Virus genome (UHGV): UHGV-0180032
DNA length: 64,000 nucleotides
Source: a virus
Strand: one strand, 5' to 3'
Shown here piece after piece: positions 42,001-48,000 of this stretch. The position numbers were made by a program. Every line of letters begins with the position of its first letter. The first letter of the stretch is position 1.

Positions 42001-45000
42001 CTACAGGCCACGTGGGACGCTTCTAATCCGCAGTGGGAAGAATGGCGCTGTGTCGGTCATCAATCTGTCAGCGCATATTTCGAAGGCGATCTCGACACGT
42101 TAACTTCGCCTAACCGTTATAGCATTACCGACAAAGCGACTAACGTTCCTTTAATCGACGGCACTAAAATTATCGGTATCTTGGATGTCAGTCGTCGTTT
42201 TGATAACGTCAGTGTCGAACAAAAATTCACCTCGTTTGGTTCCGGTAGTAAAACCACAGGTCGCGTTTTCACTCGTGTATTCTCCGGCCAATCAAACGGT
42301 AAATGGAGTGAGTGGCGAGAGGTTTTCACCTCGTATTCACTTCCGTTAGTTTTAGGCATTGGTGGTGAAGCTGCTAAGGTTGACCCGTTAGACTGGCAAA
42401 CTTACGACTTCGTTCCTGGTCAGATGCTAACGACACCGTTGAACACCATGAAAAACATTCCTGCGGGAATGGATTGGGGTGTGATTGACGGTAACTTAGT
42501 TAACATCCTTGTCGGGCCGTCTGACGACACTGGTACCGGTCGGAGTATGTTGGTTTGGCGTAGCACGGTGTCTACTGCCAACTATCGCTTCTTTGCGGTA
42601 CGTGTCGCTGGTGAGAAGGGTAGCCGTACGATTACGCCACGTCAGATGCCTGTGTTGAACGCAGCGCACACCTGGGCAGAGAAACAGACCTTTGCAAAAG
42701 GGTTAGCAGGTGAGTTAACCGGCAATGCTTCAACCGCCACTAAGCTCCAGACTGCGCGTAGAATTGGCGGGGTCGCTTTCGACGGCAGCGGTGACATTAA
42801 CCTCCCCGGTGTTAACCAACAGGGTAATCAAAACACCACGGGTAACGCCGCGACAGCCACTAAACTTCAAACCGCCAGAAATATTAACGGTGTGAGGTTC
42901 GATGGCTCTGGAGACATCAATATCAACACCTTGGTAGGTCGTGGACGGGTTACCGCTCTGACCGGGTCGAACAAGGGTACACCTGGTATCCAGATGTACG
43001 AAGTTTACAATAATGGTTATCCAACCGCTTATGGTAACTTGCTGCACTTAGGTGGTGCTAGTGCCGTAGGCGAAGGTGAACTGTTAATCGGTTGGTCTGG
43101 CACCAGCGGTGCGCACGCGCCAGTTTTTATTCGTAGTCGCCGCGATACGGCTGACGCGCCGTGGTCAGACTGGGCACAAGTTTATACTGCCCGTGACAGT
43201 ATTCCTGGCGTAAATGCCACCGGTAATCAAGATACGACCGGAAACGCCGCTACCGCAACCAAATTGAAAACCGCTCGCAGAATCGGTGGTGTTACCTTTG
43301 ACGGTACTGGGGATATCAATTTACCGGGCGTAAACCAGCAAGGCAACCAGAACACGACAGGTAATGCTGCAACAGCGACTAAACTTCAGACTGCCCGAAG
43401 TATCGGTGGTGTGGCTTTTGATGGTACGAAAGACATCAGTTTACCTGGGGTAAACCAAACGGGGAATCAGTCAACTACGGGGAACGCTGCTACTGCAACG
43501 AAGTTGCAGACAGCGCGTACCATTAACGGTATCGAATTTGACGGTACTAAAAATATTGAACTGACCCCAAGAGCCATAGGCACGATTAACTCAACAACCA
43601 TGTCTTTTAATGGTGGTGCCGGATGGTTCAAGCTGGCAACTGTAACCATGCCACAAGCCAGTTCCGTGGTTTACATAAGCATGATTGGTGGTGCAGGGTA
43701 TAACGTTGGCTCCCCGCAACAAGCTGGTATCTCTGAGCTGGTCCTGCGTGCAGGAAATGGGAACCCAAAAGGTATTACTGGTGCTTTATGGCGACGGACC
43801 TCTGTTGCTTTTACTAATTTTGCATGGGTGAATACATCTGGTGACACCTATGACATTTATGTAGAAATAGGTAATTACGCAACAGGTGTTAATATCCAAT
43901 GGGATTATACAAGTGACGCCACAGTACAAATCTATACATCGCCAACTTATACATCAGATAAACCAGCTGGTCTGACTGATGGAACGGTATATGTCGTTTA
44001 CAGTTCACACATTAAACCTACTGCGAATGATGTTGGGGCGTTGCCATTATCCGGCGGCCAATTGAATGGAGCTTTGGGTATTGGAACCGCCAATGCTTTA
44101 GGTGGGAACTCCATAGTTTTAGGGGATAATGACACCGGCCTTAAGCAGAACGGGGATGGCGTTCTAGATGTTTACGCCAATAATGCTCACGTTTTACGCT
44201 TTACGAGTGGGGCTGTTCAAAGCAATAAACCTCTCAACGTTACTGGGGATATAAGAACCAATACTTGGGTTTATGCAAATAGATATTCTATTAACAGCAA
44301 CTCAGGTTCTTGGATTAGCATGAGAGACCATAACGTTATTTTTGGTCTTAATGCGGTAGGAACTAGTTCTGCTCAGGCTTTGTTAAGACAAGACCATGCT
44401 GATAGGAAATATTTTGTTGGTGGTTTAGGTAACAGTCAATTCGGCTTTTACATGATAAACAACTCACGTACTGATAATGGCACCGATGCTAATGCTTATT
44501 TGCAAAATGACGGTACTTGGGTTTGTGGTGGGAACGGTAACTTTAACGACGTTTATATACGTTCAGACGCCCGGCTGAAAAGTAATTTCTCTCCAATAAC
44601 TAATGCATTGGAGAAGGTAAAGAAATTGTCAGGTTTAATATACGACAAAAAGGAGAACTTTAAATCCACTAATGTTCATCGTGAGGCTGGCGTTGTAGCA
44701 CAGACCTTACAAAAAGTGTTACCTGAAGCAGTTTCTACTTATAAAGACGCTAATGGTGAGGACGTTTTGACGGTCTCTAATTCTGCTCAAATAGCTTTAC
44801 TTATTGAGGCAATAAAGGAGTTGGCGGAGATAATTGAGACCAAGTTATAATTATCAGTGAGGGGGAACCCCTCACTGACTCACAAGTACGTTATAAGGTG
44901 GTTATTTTGTCTGTATCAGCGACTCCCGGATGGATTGGTTCTTCAGCAAAAGCTGAAGCTGGTGACGGTTGGATGTCTGGCGCGATGCGCACACTTGGTG

Positions 45001-48000
45001 TGCCGGTTCCAGGCTGGATGTCGCAATTGGCGGGAAAATCAAAAGAGGCTCAGTATTCGATCGGGGCTAATCACAATTACAATAAAGATACGCTTATTAA
45101 CTATTTACGTTCCATAGGCTCTACTGCTGTCGTTGTGACCATTACAGGGGATTTAGTGTCTTATAGTAGCGGGGTTCCTTGTTTAGAGTTCCCTAGCAAT
45201 CTTCCAAATTCGTATATTACCCTCATCATCAATCCTGGGGTTACAGTATACGGCAGAGGAGGCAACGGCGGTTCTAACTCACCAGGCGGTGCAGGTGGAA
45301 CCGCAATACAGAACGGAATAGGAAACAGACTGCGTATAACCAACCGTGGCGCTATTGCCGGAGGCGGTGGCGGCGGTGGCGGCGGTAACAGGGGTAGACT
45401 AGTATTTGGTGGTGGCGGTGGTCGCCCATTCGGTGCTGGTGGGTCTTCCTCTCATATGAGTTCCGGTGCGGCTGCTGGTACTATTTCCGCTCCTGGTAGA
45501 GGATCTGTTGGTGAGGGGTCTCTTAGTGCATATACAGGCGGTTCGGGTGGTAATGTCGGTGCTGGTGGAGGAAGATGTAATACTCATGGTAACGGTACAG
45601 AATATAACGGCGGAGCAGCTGGTGCAGCTGTTACTGGTAATGCGCCAAGATGGGACGCAGTAGGTGCAATATACGGTTCACGTGTTTAATTAAAAAAGAG
45701 GGTAGATGGGGGTAGCGTCAGGATGGGTCGGTTCTTCGGCCAAGAGTGAAACGGGCGAACAATGGATGAGCGCTGCTGGTAGTAAATTAGGATTGGGTAG
45801 ACCTTTTATGATGAGCCAAATGGTAGGCAGGTCTGTAGGTTGCAAAATAGCAACAGCTTATTATAAAACGTCAAATACTGATAAGGTAGAGAACTGGGGT
45901 GCTGTCGGAGCCGATTGGCCGTTGGTAGATAAGAACAAAGGAACGCTTTCTGGTGCCTCGAACTGTGGCTTAGGACGTTTAGTGGGGATCGTACTTACGC
46001 AAGCTCACTACGTTGCCGGTGTTCCGCCTACTGCCGCTTTATATATTTCTGGCGGACGGGCGAGTAACATTACGGTGACGGTTGGTGGTGTTTCGCAAGC
46101 ATTTACTTACAATAGTGTTACTAACGGTTTTCACTATTATTGGCAAGGAACACCGAGTTCGGCCTTTATAGCGGCAATGAAGAAGACGGGTGTTACACAA
46201 GATTTGAAAATTAGCTAACTAATTGGGGTAAAACGATAACCAAAATTAGTAAAATAAGAATTCGTAATTCAATAATTTTTTATAGAAAGGTTGATTTATT
46301 AGAATCGGGGGGGGGGTGAAATGTTTTTAGCCAACATTTTATGTCTCCCCAATCATAGGAGGTAACCATACGTGGAACAATTCACGCCTGATTTGTCCTT
46401 AACTTCACTTAACATGGTTATTTCACTGGTTAACCATGACCTCCAGCTCGACTTGCAAGAGAACGAGGTTGAAGTCAGCGACGTAAAGACCAGTGACGAA
46501 ATGGATCGTGACACCACTGCTGTTGTAAAGATAAAACGTCCCGGTAACAGAACGTTACAAATCTATTACAACCGTTTAACCGCAGAACGTTGGTTAAACC
46601 AGCAACCTATTCTGGTACAAGTAGCTGGAGAGGGGTTTAACACACACGATTTAATCGACGGGATTAACGCAGCCTGTGGCAGTAACCTGCAACCTGAAGA
46701 TCTTCAGGACGATTCATTTACAGTAGGAAAAGACGCTGTAACGTTACAGGTATCACCTAACTCCCTAAGTTATAAAGGCCAATTCTCTGTTTTGGTTTTT
46801 GGTAACGGTGAAGAAGCCGCAGTAACAAAAGATGACAACCTAATCGTTACCGCAGATAATCGCGTCTTAACCTTTGGTGGTTAATAGTGGCTGACACGAG
46901 CTACCATCACTTTCAGAAGACATCACTATTAAGCGTCTTACAGGGACAACGCTTTCTCAGAACGGAATGAAATAAATATTAGGTAGTAGGGGCTAAGCCC
47001 CTACTACCTTTCTTTTTTTTTATTTTTTCTCAGATATATATTACCTAGAGGAGAGCGAAATTTACATTCGCTCTATTAGTTATAGCCGAAAGGAGGATTA
47101 GTTCTATCACCCGCATTATCTGTTCTGGTGAATTGGGCGAAGATAAATTAGTTGAAGATTACATTAAGAAGGAAGGGCAATTATGAAACCAAATACTACT
47201 AACGGCATTATGCTACTTTGTGATTCTGAAACGTTAGCAAATCGTATTCGTGGTTTGATGGAAGTACGTTGGAAGCAAAAGGTTCGCGTGGACTATGCTG
47301 CCCCGTTTGTTCACGTTACTTGGTTACCAGAAGCTGACGATTTTAGAGAAAAAATAACCACGAGAAGAATTAAAGATTGGTTATCAGCAATCATTAATAA
47401 ACAGATTACCGTTATCAATTTCCAACTTTTCGGTACCGCTGAAGAACATGAAATCTTGAAACAGTGTTTAAGAGCATTGGCTCTTTCCTTCTCTGTTCGT
47501 GGAAACTGTTACACGACTTATTTTATCGGTTCGCTTGAACTGTTTAAGAATACGCTAATGCTTCAGCTAAAAGACGACTACAAACTTTTAGATAAAATCG
47601 ATTTCGAATTCCCAGCAATGATTTAAGGAGTATAAAATGCATCAGAAATTAATGACTAGTAACAAAGTTCTCCGTTTTAACCAACGTGAGTTAGAAATTG
47701 GCGGAGAACGAATTGGTCGAGTTCGTAATCTTTTAACTGTGTTAGGTTTGGTCGGCGTTACATTTACATACACCGGTAAAATTCTTTACGCGACCTGGGC
47801 TTCATGCGAAAGTGACGCTACCTACGATAAAATTCTCGATGGTATTAAAGACGGCTCGGTTTATTGTAATGTTTTCCGTGGCGTTTCGTACATCGCTGGC
47901 GATAAGTTAATGGATAAACTGAAAGCCAAATACGGAGACGGTATTATCACCACCATCTTCTTTGGTGGCGATATGCTAATCGTAACGAAAAAGGAAATTA

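What the first reader, a model, noticed from the sequence alone, without database searches (positions are those of the whole stretch)
43600..46218. Compositionally distinct, likely horizontally acquired receptor-binding module
From about 43.6 kb the codon usage changes abruptly (AT-richer, AGA/AGG/ATA codons that are rare elsewhere in the window). The shift begins right after the last fibre repeat unit and continues through the chaperone domain and both gp38-like ORFs. The module combines an auto-cleaving S74 chaperone (endosialidase/T5 L-shaped-fibre type) with T2-type gp38 adhesin genes, an unusual pairing because gp38 normally caps a gp37 fibre tip matured by separate chaperones.
Basis: partly seen in the sequence, partly recalled or inferred. 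Interest (0 to 1): 0.65.

Follow-up and report, generated by a model that had tools for sequence, protein, structure and literature searches.

The report
Swapped fibre tip with two adhesins
The end of this giant phage's tail-fibre gene and the two small genes after it form a standard T2/S16-type host-recognition kit (self-cleaving fibre end plus clip-on adhesin) that was exchanged by recombination; it is ordinary in design but carries two alternative adhesins instead of one.

Summary
Codons 43550-46215 are the most extreme block of the window: AGA/AGG/ATA 39 vs 11.5 per 1000, GC3 0.36 vs 0.46. Total GC is low only at 43.65-44.85 kb, because the gp38 gene is glycine- and GC-rich.

The 5' edge is a real recombination breakpoint. 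A 222-kb Enterobacter relative is about 90% identical up to about 43520-43550, just after the last 40-aa fibre repeat. It is unalignable from there to 44968, then homologous again.

The domain calls are right:
- Peptidase_S74 lies at aa 1447-1503, with the motif DVYIR|SDARLK.
- The next gene is a canonical GP38 adhesin.
- The third gene has a Gp38_N domain only.

The "unusual pairing" claim is wrong. In T2, T6 and S16, a self-cleaving chaperone end on gp37 followed by a gp38 cap is the canonical design. In all but three of the 68 loci surveyed, the Gp38_N gene directly follows such a fibre.

ORF3 is a short gp38-type adhesin (phrog_1121). It fills the gene-38 slot alone in some T-even phages and phage-plasmids.

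Carrying both adhesins in tandem marks this ~220-225-kb phiKZ-like jumbo lineage. The likely result is mixed fibre tips and dual receptor use; that step is inferred. This is a new member of a known kind, of modest interest.

The parts
40225..44850 (+). Tail fibre gene (1541 aa). It has a coiled N-terminal part and five 40-aa repeats (GNAATATKLQTAR...FDG..DI.LPGVN) with cores at 42721, 42841, 43240, 43360 and 43480. These are followed by the distal tip and a C-terminal chaperone.
   Evidence: ORF list; PHROG tail-fibre families; repeat positions.
43550..44968 (+). Exchanged cassette: fibre distal tip, chaperone and the intergenic region. It is unalignable with the 222-kb Enterobacter relative, which is about 90% identical upstream. 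It is 95-100% identical to the E. coli relative and about 75% (protein) to the fibre tip of an SSU5-like phage-plasmid.
   Evidence: blastn and sliding identity; BLASTP against CMS-2020a; composition.
44194..44580 (+). Distal shaft segment (fibre aa 1324-1452) similar to phage Mu tail fibre protein S residues 320-447. The S16-gp37-like stretches are aa 1290-1348 and 1415-1530, so the tip is itself a chimera.
   Evidence: phmmer against PDB: 5yvq_A E 3.9e-36; 6f45_A E 5.8e-11.
44563..44847 (+). Intramolecular chaperone (Peptidase_S74), aa 1447-1541 (95 aa). The predicted autocleavage is between R1446 and S1447 (44562|44563), in the motif DVYIR|SDARLK (Ser1447 ... Lys1452).
   Evidence: Pfam PF13884, 56 bits against a cut-off of 22; motif position; S16/fPS cleavage site (PMC7917993).
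44855..44877 (+). Perfect 10-bp stem-loop (CAGTGAGGGG-GAA-CCCCTCACTG) between the fibre stop and gp38, with no T-run. It is absent in the Enterobacter relative, where the genes overlap.
   Evidence: Read from the sequence.
44907..45689 (+). Canonical gp38 adhesin (260 aa from TTG 44907, with Shine-Dalgarno AAGGTGG at 44895-44901; GTG 44898 is an alternative start). It has an N-terminal attachment domain and a polyglycine sandwich whose variable loops are nearly identical to those of the OmpA-dependent phage PaulHMueller.
   Evidence: Pfam GP38 233 bits plus Gp38_N; PDB 6f45_D E 5e-50; alignment A2; OmpA dependence of Bas45 (PMC8594841).
45706..46218 (+). Second, short gp38-type adhesin (170 aa). 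The Gp38_N attachment domain is aa 1-44. A distinct C-terminal domain of about 125 aa is predicted to be a beta-sandwich.
   Evidence: Pfam Gp38_N 1e-19; phrog_1121 'tail fiber adhesin' over its full length, E 1.5e-54; AF2 model; homologue in the gene-38 slot of Kosakonia phage 305; dN/dS 0.11-0.25.
46372..46884 (+). DUF7941 / 'virion structural protein' gene, the last gene before the terminator. Its link to the module is by position only.
   Evidence: Pfam PF25613; phrog_2935.
46981..47009 (.). Strong bidirectional intrinsic-terminator-like hairpin (13-bp stem followed by a T-run) that closes the tail-fibre gene block.
   Evidence: Terminator scan.

Best explanation
This is a T2/S16-type fibre-tip system sitting in a phiKZ-like jumbo phage of Enterobacteriaceae.

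Proposed mechanism:
1. The 1541-aa fibre trimerises with the help of its own C-terminal intramolecular chaperone (Peptidase_S74).
2. The chaperone cuts itself off between R1446 and S1447.
3. The exposed tip is capped by one monomeric adhesin, which docks through its about 45-aa Gp38_N domain.

Two alternative adhesins are encoded in tandem. One is a canonical polyglycine-sandwich gp38 with OmpA-type loops. The other is a short (170 aa) gp38-type adhesin with a different beta-sandwich head. The genome has a single chaperone-bearing fibre, so individual fibres most likely carry one adhesin or the other. That would give the virion two receptor specificities.

The fibre tip with its chaperone (43550-44968) was replaced by recombination at the conserved 40-aa fibre repeats. 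The donor had AT-rich third codon positions and frequent AGA/ATA codons. The adhesin genes are older residents of the lineage, but they belong to the same pool of cassettes exchanged among T-even phages, SSU5-like phage-plasmids and Mu-like phages.

Shown: the domain identities, the breakpoint, the composition, the gene order and its conservation. Inferred: cleavage, capping, mixed occupancy and the receptors.
For: Domains:
- Pfam Peptidase_S74, GP38 and Gp38_N.
- PDB 6f45_D (S16 gp38) E 5e-50, and 6f45_A (S16 gp37 tip plus IMC). Entry 6f45 holds three gp37 chains and one gp38 chain.
- The cleavage motif DVYIR|SDARLK equals the published S16/fPS site.

Canonical pairing:
- gp37 of FL18 and Kosakonia 305 carry S74 immediately before gp38.
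- The literature states the same design.
- In all but three of the 68 loci surveyed (JSE, L047, L043), the Gp38_N ORF directly follows an IMC-bearing fibre ORF.

ORF3 as an adhesin:
- phrog_1121 over its full length.
- 36% identical over its full length to the sole gene-38-slot protein of a T-even phage.
- It is the sole post-fibre gene in phage-plasmid CMS-2020a/SCU-175.
- It is under purifying selection.

Single fibre: there is one IMC in the window and one in the 222-kb relative.

Exchange:
- The breakpoint lies at about 43520-43550.
- The window's tip has GC3 0.36 and 42 rare codons per 1000.
- The Enterobacter relative's alternative tip has GC3 0.425 and 3 per 1000; the resident part of the fibre has 0.45 and 10 per 1000.
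- T-even gp37/gp38 genes have GC3 0.26-0.33.
Against: - No experimental data exist for this phage. Cleavage, capping and virion incorporation of either adhesin are inferred from homologues.
- I found no direct experimental proof that short phrog_1121-type proteins bind receptors. Trojet 2011 infers it for RB43-type gp38.
- The nearest tip homologue outside the lineage (CMS-2020a) has ordinary composition (GC3 0.49) and dS 1.3, so the donor is unidentified.
- The direction of replacement rests on composition alone.
- The third conserved tryptophan position of Gp38_N is Met in ORF3 (PFMMSQ).
Confidence: 0.72

Rival explanations
1. Only the canonical gp38 is the working adhesin. On this reading, ORF3 is an assembly factor, a competing cap or decoy that regulates fibre activity, or a spare cassette that is rarely expressed.
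For: - T4 gp38 is a chaperone rather than an adhesin (Trojet 2011).
- The ORF3 head has no recognisable receptor-binding fold.
- In relatives L007 and L008, the ORF3-type gene has lost its in-frame ATG through a G8-to-G10 tract change, so it can be dispensable.
Against: - ORF3-type proteins are the only Gp38_N gene after the fibre in CMS-2020a/SCU-175 and in about 30 IMG/VR loci.
- They also fill the gene-38 slot of Kosakonia phage 305.
- dN/dS is 0.11-0.25.
- The variable region lies in the head domain, as expected for a specificity determinant.
Confidence: 0.18
2. The composition shift is not a mark of transfer. It would instead reflect amino-acid content or local selection on codon use in a long-resident gene segment.
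For: - Several small genes elsewhere in the window also reach 30-60 rare codons per 1000.
- Genes at 46.6-47.7 kb have equally low GC3.
- gp38 and ORF3 are conserved throughout the lineage.
Against: - The signal is at synonymous third positions.
- Its onset coincides to within about 50 nt with a homology breakpoint against a relative.
- The relative's alternative tip has resident-like composition.
- The same tip type occurs at about 80% nucleotide identity in unrelated phage-plasmids and Mu-like phages.
Confidence: 0.07
3. One reading: an unprecedented combination of an endosialidase/T5-type S74 chaperone with T2-type gp38 genes.
For: Pfam names the domain after endosialidases, and T4 itself uses separate chaperones (gp57A, gp38).
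Against: - T-even gp37 proteins carry the same Pfam domain directly before gp38.
- The S16 structure 6f45 contains it.
- Three papers state this arrangement as the norm.
- The linkage holds in all but three of the 68 loci surveyed.
Confidence: 0.02

Closest known systems
T2/T6/S16-type long tail fibre tip: gp37 with a C-terminal intramolecular chaperone plus a gp38 adhesin (PDB 6F45; Trojet 2011)
   Same: - S74 chaperone at the fibre C-terminus, with the cleavage motif DV(Y/N)(I/V)(R/S)|SD.R.K.
- The adhesin gene lies immediately downstream.
- The Gp38_N attachment domain keeps its conserved tryptophans.
- The polyglycine sandwich has hypervariable loops.
- The loops are near-identical to those of the OmpA-dependent Tequatrovirus PaulHMueller.
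   Different: - The host genome is a phiKZ-like jumbo phage, not a member of Straboviridae.
- The fibre is a single 1541-aa protein rather than gp34-37.
- The distal shaft contains a Mu-S-like segment and an extra knob domain.
- Two adhesin genes follow the fibre instead of one.
Short (RB43-type / phrog_1121) gp38 adhesins of T4-like phages of Klebsiella, Enterobacter, Citrobacter, Kosakonia and Proteus
   Same: ORF3 shares the Gp38_N domain and a head of about 120 aa. It matches phrog_1121 over its full length (E 1.5e-54). It is 36% identical to the gene-38-slot protein of Kosakonia phage 305.
   Different: Here it sits second, behind a canonical gp38. Its close family is small: 10 clusters at 50% identity among 1.84 billion representatives. 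That family is confined to Enterobacteriaceae jumbo elements, prophage-like contigs and SSU5-like phage-plasmids.
SSU5-like phage-plasmid tail fibres of E. coli and Shigella (for example 'Escherichia phage CMS-2020a')
   Same: The fibre tip plus chaperone is 75% identical in protein to the window's. It is followed either by a long gp38 (SCU-107 isolate) or by an ORF3-type short adhesin at 86% identity (SCU-175 isolate).
   Different: These are elements of about 105-110 kb that carry one adhesin each (one IMG/VR contig of 107 kb, L054, has two). The rest of the genome is unrelated.
Phage Mu tail fibre gpS with its Tfa chaperone gpU (PDB 5YVQ)
   Same: Fibre aa 1324-1452 align with gpS residues 320-447 (E 4e-36).
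   Different: The Mu receptor-binding end and the separate Tfa chaperone are replaced by the S74 chaperone and gp38 adhesins. No Tfa-like gene lies downstream.

Membership tests
Peptidase_S74 intramolecular chaperone (endosialidase / T5 pb1 / S16 gp37 type) | Sequence match to the family profile above the curated threshold, at the extreme C-terminus of a trimeric fibre | tested here: met
   PF13884 at 56.1 bits against a cut-off of 22, aa 1447-1503 of 1541; 6f45_A alignment.
Peptidase_S74 intramolecular chaperone (endosialidase / T5 pb1 / S16 gp37 type) | Catalytic Ser at the cleavage site with a Lys five residues downstream (S-D-x-R-x-K). The definition of this dyad is from my own knowledge of the family. 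| tested here: met
   S1447-D-A-R-L-K1452 read from the translation. It aligns with S16 S^SDRRIKK and fPS DVYIR^SDGRLKI.
Peptidase_S74 intramolecular chaperone (endosialidase / T5 pb1 / S16 gp37 type) | Autoproteolytic release after trimerisation | not testable with these tools
   Needs virion mass spectrometry or expression of the fibre.
GP38 adhesin (PF05268; T2/T6/S16 type) | Profile match over the whole polyglycine-sandwich domain together with a Gp38_N attachment domain | tested here: met
   PF05268 at 233 bits against a cut-off of 25, profile positions 1-218 of 218; PF21721 at 44.9 bits; 6f45_D E 5e-50.
GP38 adhesin (PF05268; T2/T6/S16 type) | Conserved glycine-rich motifs alternating with hypervariable loops | tested here: met
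   In alignment A2 the glycine-rich motifs are invariant. The loops match Bas45, FL18 and JSE and differ in the Enterobacter relative.
GP38 adhesin (PF05268; T2/T6/S16 type) | Encoded next to a fibre whose tip is exposed by chaperone cleavage | tested here: met
   The gene starts 57 nt after the fibre stop. The same order is seen in FL18, in CMS-2020a and in all but three of the 68 loci surveyed.
GP38 adhesin (PF05268; T2/T6/S16 type) | Binds an outer-membrane protein receptor | not testable with these tools
   OmpA is only inferred, from loop identity with Bas45.
Short gp38-type adhesin (phrog_1121; RB43-like) | Gp38_N domain plus a non-polyglycine head of about 120 aa, matching the family profile over its full length | tested here: met
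   phrog_1121 E 1.5e-54, residues 1-169 against profile 1-179 of 181; Gp38_N 1e-19.
Short gp38-type adhesin (phrog_1121; RB43-like) | Homologues occupy the gene-38 position after an IMC-bearing gp37 | tested here: met
   Kosakonia phage 305 has gp37 (S74 at 835-892), then a 165-aa homologue (36% identity, E 8e-29), then holin.
Short gp38-type adhesin (phrog_1121; RB43-like) | Demonstrated receptor binding | not tested
   No experimental paper on this subtype was found in the searches run.
Mu/P2-type fibre with a separate Tfa chaperone | A tail-fibre-assembly (Tfa) gene immediately downstream of the fibre gene | tested here: not met
   The downstream genes are GP38, a Gp38_N-only gene and DUF7941, with no Tfa family hit. 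Only an internal segment resembles Mu gpS.

The most novel reading that the evidence does not exclude
A phiKZ-like jumbo phage, whose close relatives are deposited as ~222-kb circular 'plasmids' of clinical E. coli and Enterobacter, may routinely arm one fibre type with two interchangeable clip-on adhesins. That would produce virions with mixed tips and dual receptor use. In some relatives the second adhesin is switched on and off by a poly-G tract at its start codon (G8 in frame, G10 out of frame). This would be a bet-hedging host-range device built from T-even parts in a quite different virus family.
Probability: 0.3. Interest if true: 0.55.

Novelty: new member of a known kind. Interest (0 to 1): 0.33.

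Why it matters
It is a clean, datable example of receptor-binding cassettes moving between very different phage families: T-even, Mu-like, SSU5-like phage-plasmids and a phiKZ-like jumbo phage. The recombination point lies at a conserved fibre repeat.

It also shows that the 'self-cleaving fibre end, then Gp38_N adhesin' rule can be used to find hidden adhesins. The tandem pair predicts dual receptor specificity, which matters for host-range prediction and for engineering fibres by swapping clip-on adhesins. None of this changes current understanding of how such fibres work.

Tried and rejected
- Direct-repeat search at the DNA level in 42500-44000 found nothing. The fibre repeats are conserved only at the protein level.
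- An exhaustive HMMER search with the ORF3 head found just 10 clusters. Several of these were spurious matches to GGYHWYW-repeat proteins.
- No tRNA genes were found in the window that could offset the AGA/ATA codons.
- Literature searches for tandem or dual gp38 genes, and for gp38 in SSU5-like or jumbo phages, found nothing relevant.
- The idea that CMS-2020a is the direct donor of the tip was rejected: dS is 1.3 and its composition differs.
- A first composition calculation for the L001 and L003 tips was out of frame and was redone.
- The PGAP-style start for gp38 (ATG 44973, as in relative L002) was rejected because it removes most of the Gp38_N domain.
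Full report
**What is at 43600-46218**

The region holds three things:
- the last third of a 1541-aa tail-fibre gene (40225-44850);
- a 260-aa gene (44907-45689, TTG start behind the Shine-Dalgarno sequence AAGGTGG);
- a 170-aa gene (45706-46218).

Pfam places Peptidase_S74 at fibre residues 1447-1503. It places GP38 (233 bits) plus Gp38_N on the second gene, and Gp38_N alone on the third.

**What the window is**

The window comes from a phiKZ-like jumbo phage. It has a 761-aa major head protein (phrog_3231), an RNA-polymerase-like protein (phrog_2943) and internal head proteins.

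The closest public relatives are two circular records deposited as plasmids:
- E. coli 98232, 221,873 bp, 95.5% identical over the 42600-46400 stretch searched;
- Enterobacter ludwigii, 222,441 bp.

Metagenome and IMG/VR contigs of 220-225 kb belong to the same lineage.

**Checking the observation**

In coding frame, 43550-46215 has 39.4 AGA/AGG/ATA codons per 1000, against 11.5 elsewhere. GC3 is 0.363 against 0.459 (Fisher p 5e-9 and 3e-8). Of all blocks of the same size in the window, only those overlapping this region reach either value (segment values).

The shift starts just after the last of five 40-aa repeat units, whose core is at 43480-43518.

The two adhesin genes are GC-rich overall because of glycine codons. 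The 3' edge is not sharp, since genes just downstream also have low GC3.

**Evidence for exchange**

The Enterobacter relative is about 90% identical to the window from 36035 to 43517. It is unalignable from about 43550 to 44968. From 44969 it is homologous again:
- gp38 N-terminal part, 89-95% identical;
- gp38 loop region, 55-76%;
- first half of ORF3, 62-74%;
- the rest, about 90%.

The E. coli relative shares the window's tip at 95-100%.

The Enterobacter tip also ends in an S74 domain but has a different body. Its composition is resident-like (GC3 0.425, 3 rare codons per 1000). The window's tip has GC3 0.359 and 42 rare codons per 1000. That points to replacement in the window/E. coli branch.

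The nearest tip homologues outside the lineage are:
- SSU5-like phage-plasmids of E. coli (81.7% nucleotide identity; 75% protein identity);
- small Yersinia myophages (about 85% nucleotide identity over 610 nt).

Against solved structures, fibre residues 1324-1452 match Mu fibre protein S (E 4e-36). Residues 1290-1348 and 1415-1530 match the S16 gp37 tip and chaperone. The tip is therefore itself a chimera.

The exchanged cassette is 43550-44968, not the whole of 43600-46218.

**The 'unusual pairing' claim**

- The gp37 of the T-even phage FL18 carries Peptidase_S74 at 992-1051, directly before its gp38.
- The same holds for Kosakonia phage 305.
- PMC7917993 describes the S16 case. The last 113 residues of gp37 form an intramolecular chaperone that cuts itself off at DLNVS^SDRRIKK (DVYIR^SDGRLKI in the fPS phages), which exposes the gp38 docking surface.
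- Trojet et al. 2011 and a 2026 preprint state the same for T2 and T6.

In all but three, the ORF with a Gp38_N domain directly follows an ORF with this chaperone. The exceptions are JSE and L047, Krischvirus-type loci where gp38 lies far from gp37, and L043.

**The two adhesins**

The long one is a standard gp38. It matches S16 gp38 (6f45_D) at E 5e-50. Its glycine-rich motifs and variable loops are almost identical to those of PaulHMueller/Bas45, FL18 and JSE (alignment A2). Bas45 depends on OmpA (PMC8594841), so OmpA is a reasonable but unproven guess for the receptor. The Enterobacter relative has different loops.

The short one (ORF3) matches phrog_1121 'tail fiber adhesin' over its whole length (E 1.5e-54). 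Further evidence:
- It is 36% identical (E 8e-29) to the 165-aa protein that lies between gp37 and holin in Kosakonia phage 305.
- An 86%-identical copy is the only gene after the fibre in phage-plasmid CMS-2020a from strain SCU-175. The SCU-107 isolate has only a long gp38 there.
- It is under purifying selection, with dN/dS 0.11-0.25.
- Its head is predicted as a beta-sandwich (pLDDT 70-87) with a disordered N-domain.
- The head has no significant structural relative in the PDB. Among viral models it matches only short gp38 homologues.
- Short Gp38_N proteins come with at least four unrelated or distantly related heads. This fits the modular picture that Trojet et al. drew from RB43.

**How it most likely works**

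Entry 6f45 holds three gp37 chains and one gp38 chain, so one adhesin caps one trimeric fibre. The window has a single chaperone-bearing fibre. The whole 222-kb Enterobacter relative also has just one.

Two adhesins with homologous docking domains therefore compete for one kind of tip. That should give a mixture of fibre tips and two receptor specificities. This last step is inference.

Both adhesin slots are filled in every member of the jumbo lineage examined: the window, L002, L003, L006-L008, L013, L014, L040 and L042. The first slot holds either a long gp38 or a 'type B' short adhesin. Outside the lineage, a second Gp38_N gene was seen only once (L054).

Among 844 phage records with a match to ORF3 there were 849 places. 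Two separate Gp38_N places in one isolated phage genome therefore look rare.

**Verdict**

The observation and the transfer idea are sound. The domain calls are correct. The claimed oddity is in fact the textbook T2/S16 design.

What is modestly new is its presence in a phiKZ-like jumbo phage, the chimeric Mu-S-like tip, and the lineage-wide tandem of two adhesin types. I rate it a new member of a known kind, with interest about 0.33.

Noticed in passing
L006:8802-8809, L007:8802-8811, L008:8802-8811 (equivalent to window 45706-45712): In related 225-kb scaffolds, the ORF3-type adhesin gene starts with ATG followed by a poly-G tract. The total is G8 in L006 (in frame, 168 aa) and G10 in L007 and L008. 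With G10 the ATG runs into TAA, and the open frame has no canonical start codon. This could be a slipped-strand on/off switch or a homopolymer assembly error. The window has only G5.
   Followed up: partly
window 40168-40177, 46307-46316, 58104-58112: Three intergenic G9-G10 tracts are present, where 0.11 would be expected. Each lies about 50-60 nt upstream of a gene start (the fibre gene, the DUF7941 gene and the ORF at 58161). Each is followed by a C-run that can pair with it. The stem-loops are conserved in relatives, with differences in arm sequence and tract length (G9/G10/G9 in L006-L008). They are possibly promoter or terminator elements of this phage group.
   Followed up: partly
whole window; relatives NZ_CP173450.1 and NZ_CP134650.1: The window is a phiKZ-like jumbo phage: 761-aa major head protein at 2556-4841, RNA-polymerase-like gene at 6247-7818, internal head protein at 21890-23023. 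Close relatives are deposited as circular ~222-kb non-mobilizable 'plasmids' of a urinary E. coli isolate and a gull Enterobacter isolate. This suggests a carrier state or episomal persistence of a jumbo phage. IMG/VR contig IMGVR_UViG_3300045988_095954 (L013) carries a 100% identical ORF3.
   Followed up: partly
L006:8557-8787: In some relatives, a 76-aa ORF with a lipoprotein signal (MLRKVLLGFALLTVSGC...) sits between the two adhesin genes. It is a candidate receptor-masking superinfection-exclusion protein, like T5 Llp. It is absent from the window.
   Followed up: no
window 36629-37141 and 46372-46884: Two small genes bracket the tail-protein/fibre/adhesin block. Upstream is a 170-aa protein matching phrog_9017 'tail fiber protein'. 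Downstream is a 170-aa DUF7941 / 'virion structural protein'. In relatives L006-L008, DUF7941 genes lie on both sides, and a 706-aa SASA/DUF6645 protein follows instead of the window's 944-aa tail protein.
   Followed up: no
window 37313-40147: The 944-aa tail protein (phrog_2871) is the only part of window 20000-40000 with a nucleotide match in the phage collection: 72.6% to Erwinia jumbo phage pEa_SNUABM_29 (Seoulvirus). In that phage it is not followed by a fibre-plus-gp38 module.
   Followed up: partly
L068 (MAG 'Bacilli bacterium', JBOFGC010000564.1): A contig binned as Bacilli carries a 229-aa ORF with a Gp38_N-like N-terminus, flanked by three ORFs that match the chaperone domain. This is either a mis-binned contig or a use of this docking domain outside Proteobacteria.
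   Followed up: no
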